A DNA stretch of 63,926 nt, the filler included, from Chrysochromulina tobinii (Eukaryota): NCBI GenBank assembly GCA_001275005.1. It is 6 parts of 6 records of this genome, joined end to end, with 100 filler letters (N's around TTAATTAATTAA, not from the genome) between each part and the next. Parts side by side here need not be neighbours in the genome. Positions count along the whole stretch, not along the records: positions 30,996 to 50,129 come from JWZX01000903.1; 5 more parts are not named here. One strand, written 5' to 3'. The stretch's first letter is position 1. Every line of letters begins with the position of its first letter. The notes beneath the pieces were generated by a model. The model was given only the letters and a program-made list of their open reading frames with translations, did no database searches and was not told where the DNA came from. A program made the translations under genes and the position numbers. This document shows positions 612 to 58,705 of the stretch, one piece after another.

Positions 612-3600
612 TTATGGGACGAGGGCCAGGGCGACAGGGCGACGGGCGGCGTGTGCCCCCACCTGCTTGTTCTGTTCTGACGAAACTTGGTCGGGCATGT
701 TGCCCAGCTCGAGGAGGATGGCGGTCAGCGGGTTCTCCGAGGAGGAGACGACTTCCGAGTGGTGCCGGTAGAGGACAGAGTGGACCAGGTAGAGCGAGTT
801 GAGCTCAAAGGCGCGCGTGGGCGTGCGAGACTCCGTCGACTCCATGTACACGGTGATGCGCCGTTGCTCATCGAGCTCGGGCACGTCGGCTAGGTTTGAG
901 TAGAACTGCTTCATGAGCTCGGTGGAGACCTTGATTTTGGCAGAGAGTTCCAACATCCAAGGCTCGGCGTTGTCGTCAAAGTGGCGCAGGCAGCCAACCG
1001 CCTTGAGTGACGTGGCAATCCGGAGCAGATTGCGCTTCATCGCAGCCGTTGGGCGCGATGAAGCGGAGCACAACTCGAATGCTTCGGGCTGGATGATCGC
1101 AGGGCATAGGTACGTGGTGAAGACGAAGTTGGCCACGCCAGCCATCCTTTGCTCGTCCGTCGCTTTGGGGAAACGATCCTGCGTCATCTCGTACACCCTT
1201 TTGGCGAGCACGCGGATGCCGTACGGCAGCTGGTTGCGGCACGCGATCACGCGCGTCAGGAAGAGCTCGACAATCTCGACGAGCGTCTTCACCCGTGGCT
1301 GAATGATCTCGCGCACTTCGCGGAACTGCCAGGCCTCCTTGGAACTGAGCTTCTCTGGCAGATCTTCGCCGATCTTATGGCGGAGTACCTGGGCGCATGC
1401 CTGGTACACGCGCGCCGGGTCGATCTCGAGGTCGAGAGATTTGCGCGAGAGCACCGCCGCGAGCGGCTTGAAGAGCATGTCCTTGAGCGCCTCGATGTTG
1501 GGGCCGCGGCGCGTGTACGCGGCCATGAGCTTCGTCACGTAGTTGACGGAGGCAAGAATCTGTCGCGGCTCCTGCACGGAGGCCATGTCTTCGTTCGTCG
1601 CGTGGATGATGAGCGAGAGGATGTAGTACTCGTCTCGCGCCTTGTAGTGGTTCGAGTAGATGCGGTCGCAGATGATCGCCACGAGGCGGTTGGTCTCGTC
1701 ATTCTCGCTCTTGCCAAGCGCGGCCTCCGATTCCTCCACCTTCTTGAGCATCACGGACAGGTTAGCCGGCTCCAGGTACAGCACTGAGATCATCCGCTCG
1801 TAGAGCCCCTTGGGGAACCCGGAGGACTTGATGCCGGGCATGAGCTCGCGGTGCTGGTACGCGTTGTACCGGCACAGTGTCTCGTGCACCGTCTTGTGGT
1901 TCGCAAGGACGAGCTGCACCTTATTCTCGATCTCGAGGCACGCCGCCTCTGCCGCTTCGTTGATGACCACCGCCTCATCGAGCTTTGCCTTGAGCTGCTC
2001 GATCTGCTTCTGCTCGTTCTCGATCACTTCGGCGACATTGTAAGTCTGCGACTTGACCAGCTGCTGAAGCACGTCGAGGGAAGGCCGGATGGCACGCCCG
2101 GCCATCGCCACCGCCATCACTGTCGAGATCGTCGTCGAGTCGGCTTGCTCTCCGCTCGAGGGTTCCCCACTGCCAGTCGCGAGCGCTCCGGAGCCACCGC
2201 CTGAGTCGACCACCTGGGCCGCGCGCACCGCGACAGTCTGCGAGTCGTCGAGGATCTTTTGTGCCGTGGCCGCGTCGATGTCGGTCCCATGCAGTCGTCG
2301 AATCATCTCGGGGGTCAGGAGACGGGAAGGCTCATCGTCTCGTGACACGCTGGTCAGAGATGAGGAGCTCAGCTCAACAACCTCGAGGGGCAGGTCCTGC
2401 TCATCGATCCTGCCCGTGCCGAGGCGCGAGTTGGCGCCGTTGCCCCAGGTGAACACCTGAGGAGGGAGGCAATCAACAAGAACTCAGAGATGCGATTGCA
2501 TAGGCACTCACTCAGAGAGGCAAGCAGCAGAGATGCATCGCAAGGGTGCACTCAGAGAGGCACTCAGCACTCACCTTCGCCATGCCAGCCTCTTCCGAGG
2601 CGCCAAGAGCGACGGCTCCGGAATGGTTGGCGCCACACGCGACATGGATCACCTTTTGCCCTTCGAGATCATGGATGGGGGTGGGGGTGAGTCGAGGATC
2701 CAGCCCGCCGACGCCGAGCTGGCCGTAGTGCCCCGCTCCCCACGCATACACGCGCATCCGATCCTTGGTCGCTGCGAGGGAGTGCGCCTCGCCCGCCGCG
2801 ATCGCGCCGATCTCGATGCCCTGCAGGTGCTGGATCGCCTTGGGCGCGTTACGGTTCTCGAGGTCACCATGACCAAGCTGACCCCGCTCGCCGATGCCCC
2901 AAGTGTACAGGTCACCCGTCTGCGTGAGCGCCATCGTGTGGAAGGAGCCGCAACAGATCTCCTTGACCATCTTGCGCCGGAGGAGACGGATCTCTGTCGG
3001 CACGAGCCGATTCTGATCGTCGGAAAGTCCGAGCTTACCCTTGAATCCTGAGCCCCACGCGAGGACCTCGTAGCCAGCACACAGCGCCACCGAGTGGGCA
3101 TAGGCGCATGCAACCATGACGACCTTCTTGGCGTCGAGCGGCACCAGGCGCGGCGTGGTCTCATCCTCCGGCTCGCCGAGCCCGAGCTTGCCAAATGAGC
3201 CGCTGCCCCAGGTATACAGCCGACCGTCCGACGTGACGGCAGCCGAATGCTCTTCGCCCGCAGCCGCGTGAATGATTTGGCAGTGCCCCTTGAGAGTAGC
3301 GATGATGCGCGGCTCCTCGATCTTGCTCTGGTCGCCATGGCCGAGCCGGCCGAGCGTGCCATCGCCCCACGAGTAGATGGTGCCGTCGGAGGTCACTGCG
3401 AGTACGTGCCGTACCCCCGCAGCGAGCTGGATGACCGGCTTACGATGGCCTCCGAGAGAGAGGACGCGCATGGGCCTAGAGACCTCACGCTCGTCGAGAC
3501 GCGACAGGTCGTGGCCCGTGGCGCCGTAACGGCCATCGCCCCAAGTGTACACGTCACCTTGGTCCGACAGGGCCACCGAGTAGAAGCCGCCGAAACACAG

Positions 3601-32192: not shown

Positions 32193-32367
32193 TTTGATTC
32201 TGTGAATTCTGTGTGAATAATTTCTCAAGGGGGGCTACCACTCCGAGCGCGAGATCCGGCGCGCCCGCGCCGGGCCGCCTCCCTGTCGAGAATACGGCAT
32301 TCTAGATCTTATTCACGCGCTGGACCCAATCGGGTCGTCGGCGCGAGACTCCGACGCCGCTCGGCAC

Positions 32368-35300
32368 ATGGCCGACTTCCCGCGACGTCCCGAATCGCCT
32401 GGACCGACACGCGAGGAAGTGGGCTCCGAGTATTGGGATCCGCCCTGCCGCGTCTGCAAGGTGGTCGACGACGAAGCCAACGTCCTGTGCGAGCTGTGCA
32501 ACGACGCGTACCACCTCGCTTGCATCGATAAGATCAACAAGCCGCCGCTGCCGCGGTCGCCAGAAGACGACGAGTGGTTCTGCCGCGCGTGCGTCAAGCG
32601 CGGCGTGCCCGAGGTCATCCTGGACCGCGTCGGCCGCGACTCGTCGGCGCACTACCTCGTCCAGTGGCTCGGCAAGCCCAAGTGGGACGTGTCATGGGAG
32701 CACGCCAAGATCCTCGACACGGCCTGGAGCCGCAAGCTCATCAGCAAGTACGTGGTCGAGACGGAGCCCGCCCGCAAGGGCATATCGCCCATCCTGCCGC
32801 CGTGCCACGAGCTCGTCGACCTGCGCCGCTCGCACGCCGACGCCGCCGCCAGCGCGGCCGCCGCGTGCCCGACGTCGCCGTACGTCTCGGAGCCGGCACC
32901 GGGCGGCGCTGGCCGCGGGCGTGGCACTCCTGCAGGCGCTGCGCGCCGTGTGCCTGCGCGTGCCCGAGTCCCATCCGCTCGGTGCGCTCGCCGCCGCCGC
33001 CGCGCGCCTCGCGCGGCTGCATCGGCATCCGCGCTGCGCCTCACTCGCACAGTGGTCAACGGCCGCCGGGGAGTCGCGCGCCGCGGCGGGCATGGCCATC
33101 GCGCGCGCCGTCGCCGCACTCAAGCCGCTGAGCACCCTCGCCAACACGCTGGGCAAGCGCGGCACTGCCAAGCGCCTCGCTGCCTTGCAATCCGCCGCCG
33201 CCGAGGCCGCGCACGCTCCATCCACTGATGAGGCTGCCATATTAGGCAAGCCGACCGAGGAGCTCGCGCAGGCGAGCGGCGGCAAGGCGGCGAGACTAGG
33301 CCGCGGCAAGGCGGCGGCCGGGGGCACCGCGACGAGCGGCGGCAAGGCGGTAAGCCTACCGGTAGGTAAGAAGCGCGCCGGCTCGCCGGAGATCGCCGGA
33401 GATCGCTCGTCGGAGAGTCGAGTGGAGGGCAGTGCGCCGGCGGCGGTGCGCCTCAGGTTAGTGGGCGAGGCACCGCTCACACTCGCCTCCGCGTCCGCCG
33501 CCGCTAGTCGCGCCGCCGCCCTCCCCTGCGCCGCCTCCCTGGCGAACTCTTCCGCGGCGGCCGCGGCGGCCGCGGTGGCCGCGGTGGCACTGCACGTGGG
33601 TGGCACCGGCGCGAGCCACGTGAACGGCCCGACGTACGAGCAGCTCGCCGAGCTGCGGGAGCTGTGCTCGCGCCGACCGGCACCGGCCCATGTGCTCTCG
33701 CCGGTGGCTTTGGTCCTCGGACGCGCCCTGAGTGTCGCAGAGCATGCGGAGTGGGGTGTAACGACGGCGCCCGCGCTCTGTGCGGCCGAGGCGCTGCGCA
33801 CGCTGCTCACGGAGCTCATGGCCTTCCTCGGACCGTTACCACCAGCGGCGGCCTCGGAGGATACCCTCGCCGCCGCCAAGGCTGCATGCACGCCCAATGC
33901 CTATCGCTCCTTTCTCATGCATCTGAAGGAGCAGCGGGCCGGAGGCGGCGGCAATGATGCCATGGGCGACGCCGCGACGCTTGTAGTGCCGCGCGAGGCA
34001 GCCGCCGCAGCCGCCGCGTTCGTACCGAGCGCCGTTCCGAGCGCCGTTCCGAGCGCCCTTCGCACCCTTTTTGTGGCGCCACGCGAGGCGGCCGCCGCGG
34101 CCGACGCGTTCGCCGCGCTCGCGCCGAGCGCCCTTCGCACCCTCGGTGATCGCGCCAATGCCGAGTACCGCTCCCGGCTCGGTTCCCTCCCCAATGATCT
34201 CCTCGGGCTCGAGCGCCGTGGCGGCGGCGGCGGCGGGCGTGGCGGCGAGCGTGGCGGTGGCCCGTGCAGCGTTTGCCGCGAGTCGGACCGGCGGGACTGC
34301 CTCATCTGCCACCGGTGCGACCAACTCACGCATCTCATGTGCTTCTTCCCGCCAAAGGTCTCAGCCGACGAGGCGGACGAGGCGCACTGGACGTGCGACA
34401 TCTGCTCAGCGAAATTGCCGCCGCCGCTCGCGATGCCCAAGCAAGGAGATGAGCTCGAAGCCGAGGTGGCCGAGCCGGAGGGCGGGGCACCCGTGTGGAA
34501 GCGTGCTATCGTGCTCAAGGTGCTCCCGCGCGCCACCTTCCGGCTCATGATCAACCCCGACGAGGAGGACGACTTCATCGAGGAGTATGGGATGCACGAA
34601 CTCAACAAGGAGTGGCGATGGCCGCAGGCCGCCCTTGCGGCCAATGCGGCCGCCCGCGCCGCAGCCGAGCAGTGCGCAGCTTCCGTCGCCGAGAAGCAAG
34701 CGGCCGAGAAGGCGGCGCTCGTTGCGGACCAAGAGAGCGCGCCATCGGATCCTCTCCTCTTGGAGCTCGTCAAACAGTTCTACGACGAAGGGTTCTGTGT
34801 GCTCAAAGACGGGTTGAGCGCAGATCAGGTGGACGCGTGCGACATGGTCGTCGATCGCGGCTACAAGCAGTACATGCACTGCGTCAAGACCCTCGAGCTG
34901 CAGGAGAGGCTGAGCGAGGTGGGCTTCATGGAGATCAAGAAGCGCTCCGCCTGATTGCCTCCCTCATTGCACCTGATTGCCACCCTCATCAGGTGGGCTT
35001 CATGGAGATCAAGATGCGCTCCGCCGGGAGATACGATCTGCAACTGCCCGAGCTCTCGACGCCCGCCTTCTCGTTTGTCACCCATGACGCCCCCTGGATG
35101 GCGCTTGTGCATGCATTGCTCGGCAAGGACGCGGTGAGTGCCCCCCCACCTGCCATGGAAGAGTCCCTGATTGCTGGACGATGTGCCACGTCACCGACGC
35201 TTGATTGCTGGACGATGTGCCACGTCACCGACGCTTGATTCTGGACGATGTGCCACGTCACCGACGCTTGAAGCGCTCGCGGTGACGCCCGTGGCGATGC

Positions 35301-35948
35301 TCGCAGGTCCTCACACACTTTGGCTGCATGCTCTCTTTCCCGGGCTCCGCCACACAGCCTTGGCACTCGGACGGTCCCCACATCAGGGGCTGCGGCGAGG
35401 CGGCGCATCGAGTTGGATACGGGATGGCTGGTGCCCCAGAACCGGACGCCAAGTTCAACCCCAACGGCTTTCATGCTGGCAAGGAGGCGGCGGCCGCTAA
35501 CGCCGCGGCCCCTGGGCGCAAGGACAAGGGGAGCGTCGTCCCGGGCACTCCTGCGGACGATGAGGAGGCGGAGGCGGAGGGGGCTCCCGGAGTGCAGCCC
35601 TTCTACGCGCCCGTACATGCCCTCAATGTGTTCGTACCTTTGGTCGATCTCAGCGAGGATAGGGGCCCGACGGAGTTCGTGCCAGGATCTCACCGCGACT
35701 ACGACGTTGACGCGCCGAGCAAGAAAGAGACCCTCCTCAAAGGGCAGGCGCTGCTATTCGACTACCGCCTCAAGCACCGCGGGCTGGGGAACAACTCGAC
35801 GACCGAGAGGCCGCTCCTCTACATCACCTACGCACGTCCCTTTTGGGTCGACGTGGACAACTTTGACAAGGCGCGCTACGAGAATCTGCCCGCGTGCAAA
35901 GAGTTCATGTCGCGCGAGGAGCGCTTACTAAAGCGCCAGCGCGGCTGA
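32368..35948 (+). CDS. PHD finger - chromodomain - Ala-rich helical region - PHD finger - Tudor/Agenet-like - PhyH-family 2OG-Fe(II) dioxygenase. Introns 34919-34992 and 35134-35306; unresolved frame change near 32860-32935
   Basis: CRVC..CELCNDAYHLAC..WFCRAC; EVILDR..YLVQWLG..SWE; CSVC..CHRC..HLMC..WTCDIC; GDELEAEV..WKRAIV; FYDEGFCVL..QPWHSDG..LNVFVPLVD..GPTEFVPGSH..LFDYRLKHRGLGN..RPLLY. Confidence 0.8.
34919..34992 (+). other. 74-nt intron = 33-nt copy of the downstream exon start + two TGATTGCC(T/A)CCCTCAT units + CAG
   Basis: 34919-34951 matches 34993-35025 at 32/33. The unspliced frame stops at 34954; splicing gives ERLSE-VGFMEIKMRSAGRYDL. Confidence 0.9.
35134..35306 (+). other. 173-nt intron containing three tandem ~33-bp units (TGATT(G)CTGGACGATGTGCCACGTCACCGACGCT)
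   Basis: GCG|GTGAGT...CGCAG|GTCCTC, phase 0; repeats at about 35168-35270. Confidence 0.85.
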
Positions 35949-36636: not shown

Positions 36637-37838
36637 TCACTTCTTAAGCTGGGTAGGGAGCAGCGTGGGCTCTATCAGCCCTGGCTTGCGATCGATCCAC
36701 GCGATGGCCTTCTCCACGTTGTCTACATTCGAGGGCAGGAAGAAGGTCTTCGAAAGTATCTCCGCATCGAGGAGCGGCGAGACGATCTTCCACACGGGAT
36801 GGAAATAGGGCGGCACGTTAATGAAGGCGGCAATCCCAAGCCGACCCGGGTAGTGATTACGGAGGACATCAATGCACTCCTTGATCTGTGGGAGCGTGGT
36901 CGGGCGGAAGCCCGTCATGTCAAGCACGATGCACGCGCGCTGCACGCGCCGCCCTCGGCCACGTAGCGGCATGCGACGAATGTAATGCTCCATTTGGTAA
37001 GCGACGTGCCTGATGAGGGAGGCCATCGGAGGCACTCAGTAGCCATCAGGGGCGCACACAGACTCATGTCATCCTCCGTTTGGCAAGCGACGTACCGGAT
37101 TCGTTCCTCATGGGGCACGTGCTCGGGGTGCCATGCCTTCGCTAGAAAGTAGGTGAGGGGCATGCCGTTGCGCGTGTACCGCCACTGCTGCATCGTAGGG
37201 CGGGTGTGTGGCGGGTGCAATTCGAGCTTCCCGCTCCGCCAGCGCCTTCGGATCGCGCTGGCGGCGCTGGCGGCGCTGGCGGCGCTGGCGGCGCTGGCGG
37301 CGCTGCCAGTGCTGCCGGTGCTGCCGGTGCTGCCGGTGCTGCTGCTGACGCTGCTGACGCTGCTGCTGACGCCGCTACTGCTGCTACTAATGCTATCGCT
37401 GCTAGTGCCGGGCCTGATGCCGCAGGTGACGAGGGCCTCCTCCAGCGTCGCCTCTGTCTTCTGACCATTGGCGGGAGTCATCATCACGACCCAGCCCCGC
37501 TGCGAGCATGCGATGGGCATGTCGCTCGGCTTGAGCAAGCGTGGTTTGTACTTGGCGCGCCACACGAAATCCCTTCGGAGGAGCTTCGCTGCGCGCTCGG
37601 CGTCCCATTCGCATACGGCCAGGAACCGAGCGTACGTATCTGCCGTCACGCGCTCGCCCAGCTTGAAGACTGGCGGCGGTGGCACGAGGCGGCGGAGTTC
37701 GGCAATCGCCCGATGGCGCTGATCGGTGCTCACGTGTGGCGTTGAGCGCTGCAGCACGGTGCGTCGAGTGAGCAGTGCTAGCACCAGCGCGGCGCGAAGC
37801 GGGTGTTTCCACACGATTGCCGGCAGCGACAGGCGCAT
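36637..37838 (-). CDS. CRAL-TRIO/Sec14-like lipid-binding protein; intron 37010-37095
   Basis: YARFLAVCEWDAERA..DFVWR (CRAL-TRIO N domain), IVLDMTGF, LRNHYPGRLGIAAFINVPPYFHPVWKIVSPLLD. Confidence 0.88.
37010..37095 (-). other. 86-nt intron = 30-nt degenerate copy of the downstream exon start + CTGA(T/G)-type filler ending GATGGCCTCCCTCATCAG
   Basis: GTACGTCGCTTGCCAAACGGAGGATGACAT versus exon GCACGTCGCTTACCAAATGGAGCATTACAT (25/30). Splicing joins the two ORFs as ERIR-HVAYQMEHY. Confidence 0.88.
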
Positions 37839-57285: not shown

Positions 57286-58705
57286 CTATGCGCGGGTGAC
57301 ATGAGTGTGCTCGCTGAAGGCCGATGGGTCGACGACGGTCGCTGATGGGATCGTGATCGACAAAAGCGAGGTGCAGCCGTCAAAGGCTTCCCTACCAATC
57401 TGCGTCACCGATGCGGGGAGCGTGATCGACGCGAGCGAGGCGCAGCCCTCAAAGGCCCACGCACCAATCTGCGTCACCGACTTGGGGATCGTGATTGACG
57501 CGAGCGATTTGCAGCCGTTAAAGGCGTACCCACCAATCTGCGTCACCGACTCAGGGAGCGTGATCGACGCGAGCGAGGTGCAGCCGGAAAAGGCGCCACT
57601 CAGCAATCTGCGTCACCGACTCGGGGATCGTGATCGACGCGAGCGAGGTGCAGAAGGAAAAGGCGCCCCCACCAATCTGCGTCACCGACGCGGGGATCGT
57701 GATCGACGCAAGCGAGGCGCAGTCGCGAAAGGCTTGATCACCAATCTGCGTCACCGACGCGGGGAGCGTGATCGACGCGAGCGAGGTGCAGTCGCGAAAG
57801 GTTTGATCACCAATCTGCGTCACTGACGCGGGGAGCGTGATCGACGCGAGCGAGGTGCAGCCGTGAAAGGATTGATCACCAATCTGCGTCACCGACTCGG
57901 GGAGCGTGATCGACGCGAGCGAGGTGCAGCCGTGAAAGGCGTGCGCATCAATCTGCGTCACCGACTCGGGGAGCGTGATCGACGCGAGCGAGGTGCAGCC
58001 GTGAAAGGCGTGCGCACCAATCTGCGTCACCGACGCGGGGAGCGTGATCGACGCGAGCGAGGTGCAGCCGTGAAAGGCGTTCACACCAATCTGCGTCACC
58101 GACGCGGGGAGCGTGATCGACGCGAGCGAGGTGCAGCCGTGAAAGGCGCGCTCACCAATCTGCGTCACCGACGCGGGGAGCGTGATCGACGCGAGCGAGG
58201 TGCAGCCTTGAAAGGCGCGCTCACCAATCTGCGTCACCGACGCGGGGAGCGTGATCGACGCGAGCGAGTCGCAGCGGAAAAAGGCATACCCACCAATCTG
58301 AGTGATCGACGCGGGGAGGTTCGCGACCGACTTGAGCGACTTGCAGTCTCGCATCGTGAGCTCTCGCAGCGCCGTCAGCCTCGCCACAGACGCCGGCAGC
58401 GCCTCCCCCTTCCACTTCACGCTCAGTTCCAGCCCGCCCACGCGCCCCTCCTCCTTGTCCGCCGTGAGCGCCCTGCCGAGCCCGTCCCGGCCGCCCTCCA
58501 TCCCCGCCAGCCACTCGGGATCCTCCAGGATCCACGCGTCCTCAAACGCCCCAATGAGCTCCACGTCTGTCGCCCCCGCCGCCACCATGCTCCGCACCGC
58601 CTCCCGGCGCAGCTCGCGCTCGCGCCCGCACGATTCGATGAGCTCCATCGCGCTGCGCACGATGCCGTAGATGGCGTGGCCGGGCAGCCCCTTGCGCGCG
58701 GTCAA
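57286..58705 (-). CDS. BspA/TpLRR (LRR_5)-type leucine-rich repeat protein, 14 x 23-aa (69-bp) repeats. 5'-truncated at the gap; 1-nt frameshift near 57600
   Basis: Consensus CTSLASITLPxSVTQIGxxAFxG; ORFs 57551-58705 and 57286-57606 overlap in different frames. Confidence 0.9.

What the first reader, a model, noticed from the sequence alone, without database searches (positions are those of the whole stretch)
34919..35025. Intron apparently born by insertion: 33-nt target-site duplication plus a short repeated splice-signal filler
Seen: the intron's first 33 nt (GTGGGCTTCATGGAGATCAAGAAGCGCTCCGCC) copy the first 33 nt of the next exon at 32/33, and both copies are preceded by AG. The remaining 41 nt are two units of TGATTGCC(T/A)CCCTCAT ending in CAG. 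Splicing regenerates the pre-insertion mRNA exactly. Knowledge: described introner elements typically derive from DNA transposons with short TSDs (a few nt to about 10) and often TIRs. Inference: here the TSD is long, there are no TIRs, the 3' end is constant and the 5' side is variable and repetitive. That fits a staggered cut at an AG|GT site with templated addition of a short motif (target-primed RT or telomerase-like) that supplies a branch point (CTGAT) and acceptor, i.e. a possibly undescribed intron-generating system.
Basis: partly seen in the sequence, partly recalled or inferred. Interest (0 to 1): 0.9.

Follow-up and report, generated by a model that had tools for sequence, protein, structure and literature searches.

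The report
Introns born by copying neighbours' ends
A 74-base intron in an algal gene begins with a copy of the next exon's first 33 bases, and about half of its look-alike introns carry the same footprint; they likely arise when DNA repair copies one end of an existing intron into a new spot, which would make new introns without a transposon.

Summary
Intron 34919-34992 starts with a 32/33 copy of the next exon and is skipped in an RNA contig. It is young: genomic-looking orthologues lack it, and 1 of 5 close alleles lacks it while keeping intron 2. It is not a one-off: 92 of 201 motif-ending introns from related contigs carry an 11-60-nt copy of the next exon's start (null 0.3%).

A mirror class exists (20 of 51 filler-starting introns end in a copy of the previous exon). 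Fillers often match a neighbouring intron (9 of 48, 0.45 expected). Junctions show excess microhomology.

Best reading (0.55): host template-switch repair copies an existing intron's end into a new site and duplicates the target; selection keeps the spliceable products. Rivals: an RNA template, or rewriting of older introns (about 15 of 83 sites look like intermediates). No enzyme or template is shown.

This scan noted the downstream-copy class before, on another piece of this genome (e1-2577349). The mirror class, local sourcing and the intronless allele are added here.

The parts
34919..34992 (+). Intron 1 of a PHD/PhyH-domain gene, 74 nt, GT-AG, phase 0
   Evidence: frame, orthologues; 74-nt skip in RNA contig; PhyH, PHD
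34919..34951 (+). Intronic copy of the next exon's first 33 nt; supplies the GT donor; carries the derived mismatch
34952..34992 (+). 41-nt filler of two repeat units; supplies the acceptor and a predicted branch point (consensus recalled). Closest match is a 22-nt-unit array in an intron on another contig (L037)
34993..35025 (+). Exonic copy of the duplicated 33 nt (start of exon 2, 34993-35133)
35134..35306 (+). Intron 2, 173 nt, with a 34-nt unit x3.1; not of the duplication class; retained in the allele that lacks intron 1
   Evidence: (173-nt skip in X15 and X17)
35307..35948 (+). Last exon, PhyH domain (PF05721)
37010..37095 (-). Second case: 86-nt intron of a CRAL-TRIO gene; first 30 nt match the next exon at 25/30; same motif end
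   Evidence: splicing inferred from X17 record 21 and X15 record 14 piece ends; 21 of 21 homologues read through
36980..37009 (-). Exonic copy for the second case
2457..2574 (-). Third motif-ending intron (118 nt, boundaries inferred from sequence), no detectable exon copy

Best explanation
This is a young, spliced intron made of a duplicated piece of exon plus a repeat filler, and it likely formed when host DNA repair or replication switched template onto the end of an existing intron and then returned upstream of where it left. Shown: the anatomy, the RNA skip, absence in orthologues and one allele, the genome-wide excess of such copies in both polarities, local filler sharing and junction microhomology. 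Inferred: a staggered break or stalled fork in an exon; a 3' end pairs by a few bases with the repeat of another intron (often in the same gene), copies about 20-90 nt through that intron's splice site, and rejoins the target 10-60 nt back, duplicating it. Copying an intron's 3' end survives when the duplicated exon begins GT/GC; copying a 5' end survives when the duplicated exon ends AG. Splicing then restores the old mRNA exactly. Each new intron would be a template for the next, and its direct repeats would allow later amplification into arrays or precise loss. No element-encoded enzyme is needed; the polymerase is not identified.
For: Downstream-exon copy in 92 of 201 motif-ending introns vs 0.33% null, 11-60 nt, median 25 (strict motif 60 of 135 vs 0.5%). 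33 of 82 ungapped copies are perfect. Mirror class in 20 of 51 filler-starting introns (18 distinct) vs 0.8%. Best filler match within 3 kb in 9.0 of 48 vs 0.45 expected, after removing arrays and paralogues; one pair counts twice. Microhomology at the copy/filler junction: mean 3.9 nt (3.2 without one outlier) vs 1.4; 20 of 24 above their own null. Filled/empty paralogue pair L143/L104: a new non-GT insertion whose filler equals the adjacent intron's end. Allele P0140 (9.2-kb contig, 239/246 identical) lacks intron 1 but reads into intron 2. Genomic-looking orthologues P0127, P0139, P0098, P0103, P0011 and P0123 read through. Copy plus filler is 50-109 nt, negatively correlated (rho -0.60), as a minimum intron size would give.
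Against: About 15 of 83 placed sites have the first exon copy directly behind an older motif acceptor, so some copies arise at existing introns. The focal filler has no local source in the window, and its own microhomology (5 nt vs null 3.4) is not significant. P0140 shares variants with intron-bearing alleles, so it may be a secondary precise loss or an assembly collapse. 39 of 48 targets have no local best match. All 11 listed local pairs are same-strand, which also fits a nascent-RNA template; only 7 of 176 near pairs are opposite-strand, so strand could not be tested. Non-filler control acceptors are also often followed by GT (25 of 88), so exon-start bias is weak evidence. Loci were chosen by the motif, and no whole genome was held.
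Confidence: 0.55

Rival explanations
1. RNA-templated insertion. A reverse transcriptase (retroelement, telomerase-like, or a repair polymerase) primed at a staggered nick copies intron-containing RNA, either the nascent pre-mRNA or an excised intron ending in CAG.
For: Long variable target copies with a fixed 3' end and a variable 5' side resemble target-primed RT (established knowledge). Local matches are all same-strand. The constant end runs from a predicted branch point to the acceptor (consensus recalled).
Against: The mirror class has the opposite polarity. Near-identical local copies extend about 50 nt, well past the predicted branch point. No poly(A) tail is evident in the fillers. 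0 of 2158 ORFs in 621 kb had a crude RT motif pair. Rfam gave nothing at the locus.
Confidence: 0.2
2. Turnover of older introns. The position was gained earlier by another route; a duplication across the splice site followed by deletion of the old half (or partial repair from spliced mRNA) rewrote it, so the copy dates a rewrite rather than a birth.
For: About 15 of 83 sites show old-intron plus new-unit intermediates, and 29 of 83 are arrays. Paralogues differ in unit number (L104 one, L143 three). The nearest orthologue without the intron is only about 66% identical.
Against: 67 of 83 begin with the exon copy at the apparent donor. L143 shows a new insertion where L104 has none. An intronless close allele exists. 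Short copies are in excess even among 'no-copy' introns (>=5 nt in 13 of 81 vs 5%).
Confidence: 0.18
3. Classical introner: a non-autonomous DNA transposon with a fixed short target duplication.
For: Shared end motif across many loci. A conserved 5'-anchored family of about 55 nt occurs on several contigs. Chrysochromulina MAGs have introners.
Against: Duplications vary from 11 to 60 nt, against 3-8 nt fixed per class in bioRxiv 10.1101/2020.10.14.339549. No inverted ends in the focal filler (longest self-inverted word 5 nt). No end-to-end shared body; local sourcing.
Confidence: 0.05
4. Assembly artefact or chance.
For: X1 may be the window's own source; raw reads were not available.
Against: The mismatch between copies recurs in four other alleles. 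RNA skips exactly the unit. The pattern recurs in 92 of 201 loci from many records.
Confidence: 0.02

Closest known systems
Daphnia pulex neointrons from staggered double-strand-break repair (PMC4202315, passages read; PMC3443670, passages)
   Same: [quoted passage not shown]
   Different: There the exon repeats are 4-12 bp and the source of most inserts is unknown. Here they are 11-60 nt, and the insert is a shared splice-signal repeat traceable to other introns, often neighbours.
Introners / introner-like elements, including Chrysochromulina sp. and Polarella (10.1101/2022.06.06.494994 passages; 10.1101/2020.10.14.339549 parts 1-2 of 4; PMC12130899 passages)
   Same: [quoted passage not shown]
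   Different: Those have fixed 3-8-nt duplications, often inverted ends, and a conserved body. Here length is variable, there are two polarities and only one end is shared. C. tobinii is listed with 0 introner families in PMC12130899 supplement file 7; whether this organism is that species was not determined.
Intron gain by tandem genomic duplication of an AGGT-containing exon segment (PMC3443670 passages; PMC4974935 listing only)
   Same: The donor comes from duplicated exon sequence; precise gain.
   Different: In that model the whole intron is exon-derived. Here 41 of 74 nt are foreign filler.
Templated insertions of synthesis-dependent microhomology-mediated end joining, and rice partial tandem duplications with nearby-templated inserts (review PMC7407515, passages)
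   Same: Duplication plus an insert copied from near the break, with microhomology.
   Different: Not described there as a recurrent intron source in the passages seen; the enzyme is untested here.

Membership tests
Introner (DNA-transposon type) | Many introns similar along their whole length | tested here: not met
   Only one end is shared; fillers differ and the other end is locus-specific. One 5'-anchored family shares about 55 nt.
Introner (DNA-transposon type) | Short target duplication of fixed length | tested here: not met
   11-60 nt, continuous
Introner (DNA-transposon type) | Terminal inverted repeats | tested here: not met
   Focal filler's longest self-inverted word is 5 nt; tested on the focal filler only
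Introner (broad sense) | One splice site carried, one recruited from the duplication; mRNA restored | tested here: met
Non-LTR retroelement / target-primed RT insertion | Fixed 3' end with 5' truncation, single polarity | tested here: not met
   True for the downstream-copy class, but a mirror class exists
Non-LTR retroelement / target-primed RT insertion | Autonomous RT-encoding partner with the same end | tested here: inconclusive
   0 of 2158 ORFs in 621 kb with a recalled motif pair; profile search of the records was not possible
Break-repair neointron (Daphnia type) | Direct repeat of the adjacent exon end at the opposite intron end | tested here: met
Break-repair neointron (Daphnia type) | Absent in outgroups and polymorphic within the species | tested here: met
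   From predicted proteins only; direction of the allele change not settled
Break-repair neointron (Daphnia type) | Origin by end-joining repair enzymes | not testable with these tools
   Microhomology excess only
Tandem genomic duplication intron | Whole intron derived from flanking exon | tested here: not met
   The 41-nt filler is unrelated to the upstream exon

The most novel reading that the evidence does not exclude
A self-seeding, transposon-free route to mass intron gain. Introns built from tandem branch-point repeats act as templates that host repair copies, from either end, into nearby exons with a long target duplication, so introns beget introns along a gene. It is still active and segregating, and similarity-based introner scans miss it because copies share only one end.
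Probability: 0.4. Interest if true: 0.9.

Novelty: new variant of a known kind. Interest (0 to 1): 0.74.

Why it matters
How new spliceosomal introns arise is a long-standing question. Most recent work credits transposon-like introners, while break-repair gains usually have no traceable source. Here many recent events keep a readable record: the duplicated target dates them, and the filler points to the source intron. The organism occurs in runs labelled mixed culture and in freshwater metagenomes, so gain, amplification and precise loss could be tested directly.

Tried and rejected
No whole genome is held, and the contig records could not be profile-searched for RT. The 13 viral-contig motif hits showed no filler in the 10 distinct contexts printed and were treated as chance. 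Rfam: one weak irrelevant hit. A nucleotide search for empty sites among the loci showed only self matches in the part seen; two distant protein paralogues read through. Allele pairs L002/L004 and L008/L048/L090 had introns in both, with repeat-number changes in the first pair. The exon-start GT bias was dropped as strong evidence after the control. The first microhomology run was contaminated by own-array copies and redone. The first local-source count (12.3 of 46) included arrays and was redone. The CRAL-TRIO frame was wrong and was corrected. Nine exact look-ups of window ORFs found nothing. A polymerase gene in L098-L101 looked like Pol theta by eye, but its best match is Pol nu or Pol I, so it is no evidence for the enzyme. 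Eight paper searches found no description of this class; subscription papers are not covered. Supplement files 13-14 of PMC12130899 and the cut part of the PMC9860276 table were not seen and may list these families.

Full report
Observation. The intron is 34919-34992. Its first 33 nt match the next exon at 32/33, both copies follow AG, and a 41-nt two-unit filler ends in CAG. Removal restores a frame that aligns without a gap to PhyH-family orthologues, which share the exon copy's Met. The named closest orthologues are from Isochrysis, Pleurochrysis and Phaeocystis, so the organism is inferred to be a haptophyte; its runs are labelled mixed culture or freshwater. DNA contigs of X1 cover the intron with 0 differences. 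RNA contig 20 of X17 skips 74 nt there and 173 nt at intron 2. X17 is another population, but its transcript carries five replacement variants of the intron-bearing allele P0126. A second, older case lies in the window: 37095-37010 on the minus strand, 25/30. A third motif intron (2574-2457) has no copy.

Age. Proteins called on genomic-looking contigs read through the site: P0127 and P0139 (about 66% identical, ending in an intron-like tail further on), P0098 (26.6-kb contig), P0103 (48.5 kb), P0011 and P0123. Among five close alleles, four stop inside intron 1 with the same mismatch (P0090, P0093, P0095, P0126). One, P0140, is 239/246 identical, lacks intron 1 and runs into intron 2. That is a presence/absence difference seen at protein level only. 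P0140 shares variants with intron-bearing alleles, so ancestral absence, precise loss between the repeats and assembly collapse cannot be told apart. All 21 homologues of the CRAL-TRIO gene read through the second site; many may be transcripts, one lies on a 28.5-kb contig.

Class. With the strict motif, 60 of 135 terminal acceptors had an ungapped copy of the next exon's start within 300 nt upstream (null 0.5%). For the relaxed set I dropped 13 viral loci, 5 chance-looking loci and 7 redundant loci; 92 of 201 had a copy, 11-60 nt, median 25 (null 0.33%). Of 82 ungapped copies, 33 are perfect, 25 have one mismatch and 24 have more. Copy plus filler spans 50-109 nt in 72 single-unit cases. A motif-free repeat scan revealed the mirror geometry: 20 of 51 introns that begin with filler end in a copy of the previous exon's end, 18 distinct (null 0.8%). 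Some cases place the splice site in mid-copy, and 25 of 56 non-redundant repeat pairs had no in-register splice site and remain unexplained.

Source of filler. Fillers of same-strand introns within 1.5 kb are more alike than those on different contigs (>=26/30 in 4 of 109, one an array artefact, vs 82 of 20779). After removing arrays and paralogues, the best match among the relaxed acceptor sites (367 in all) lay within 3 kb for 9.0 of 48 targets against 0.45 expected; sources lay upstream in 5 and downstream in 6 of 11 listed pairs. The copy/filler junction shows excess microhomology (20 of 24 above null). L143, against its paralogue L104, has an extra 25-nt duplication with a filler equal to the adjacent intron's end and no GT start; the target also resembles that intron's following exon start. 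The focal filler's nearest match is not local but an array in L037.

Mechanism. Two polarities, variable length, local templates and microhomology fit a double template switch during host repair or replication, filtered by selection for in-register splice sites (inferred, 0.55). An RNA template would also give same-strand local sources (0.2). Rewriting of older introns has visible intermediates: 16 of 83 placed sites, one doubtful, have the first copy behind an older acceptor; 9 of 92 could not be placed. It probably contributes to the class even if most positions were born this way (0.18 as the main explanation). No enzyme is shown. A crude RT motif scan found 0 of 2158 ORFs in 621 kb.

Comparison. 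It works like Daphnia break-repair neointrons (exon repeats 4-12 bp; PMC4202315 passages) and recruits splice sites like an introner. It fails the introner tests of fixed short duplication, inverted ends and shared body, and the tandem-duplication test of a wholly exon-derived intron. PMC11782384 (abstract only) reports 4-30-bp repeats near intron borders in general. PMC8469720 and PMC11282704 (passages) describe no such class. Eight searches found no paper on it.

Verdict. Real, young and general in this genome; a new variant of a known kind, with a fair chance of being a distinct intron-making route. Interest 0.74.

Noticed in passing
L056, L045, L012, L022: A 5'-anchored intron family sharing about 55 nt from a GTACGTTGAT start, followed by a variable-length copy of the upstream exon; closest to a discrete introner.
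   Followed up: partly
window 35134-35306: Intron 2 has a 34-nt unit x3.1; allele P0140 appears to have one unit, and relative P0007 seems to have an intron at the same position.
   Followed up: partly
window, around 53100 (-) and 53800 (+): An inverted repeat of about 100 nt, roughly 700 nt apart, seen; possible transposon ends or inverted duplication.
   Followed up: no
L098-L101: A family-A DNA polymerase gene (best match Pol nu, then Pol I) interrupted by several motif introns.
   Followed up: partly
L053/L054: About a dozen motif introns within 7 kb; such introns look clustered (median 677 nt between successive acceptors) against 3 in the 64-kb window, with ascertainment bias.
   Followed up: partly
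L023 near 11635; L018 near 5559; L069: Apparent micro-exons of 9-33 nt between adjacent filler introns.
   Followed up: no
window 32306-35948; P0140: The host gene may fuse PHD and chromo-like domains to a PhyH dioxygenase domain; RNA cover starts only at 34290.
   Followed up: partly
window 57347-58318: Tandem array of a 69-nt unit, 14 copies.
   Followed up: no
L010 10018, L072 10060, L023 10282 (numbering): Copies starting GG or GA rather than GT; some lie inside an older intron, others may use shifted or non-canonical donors.
   Followed up: partly
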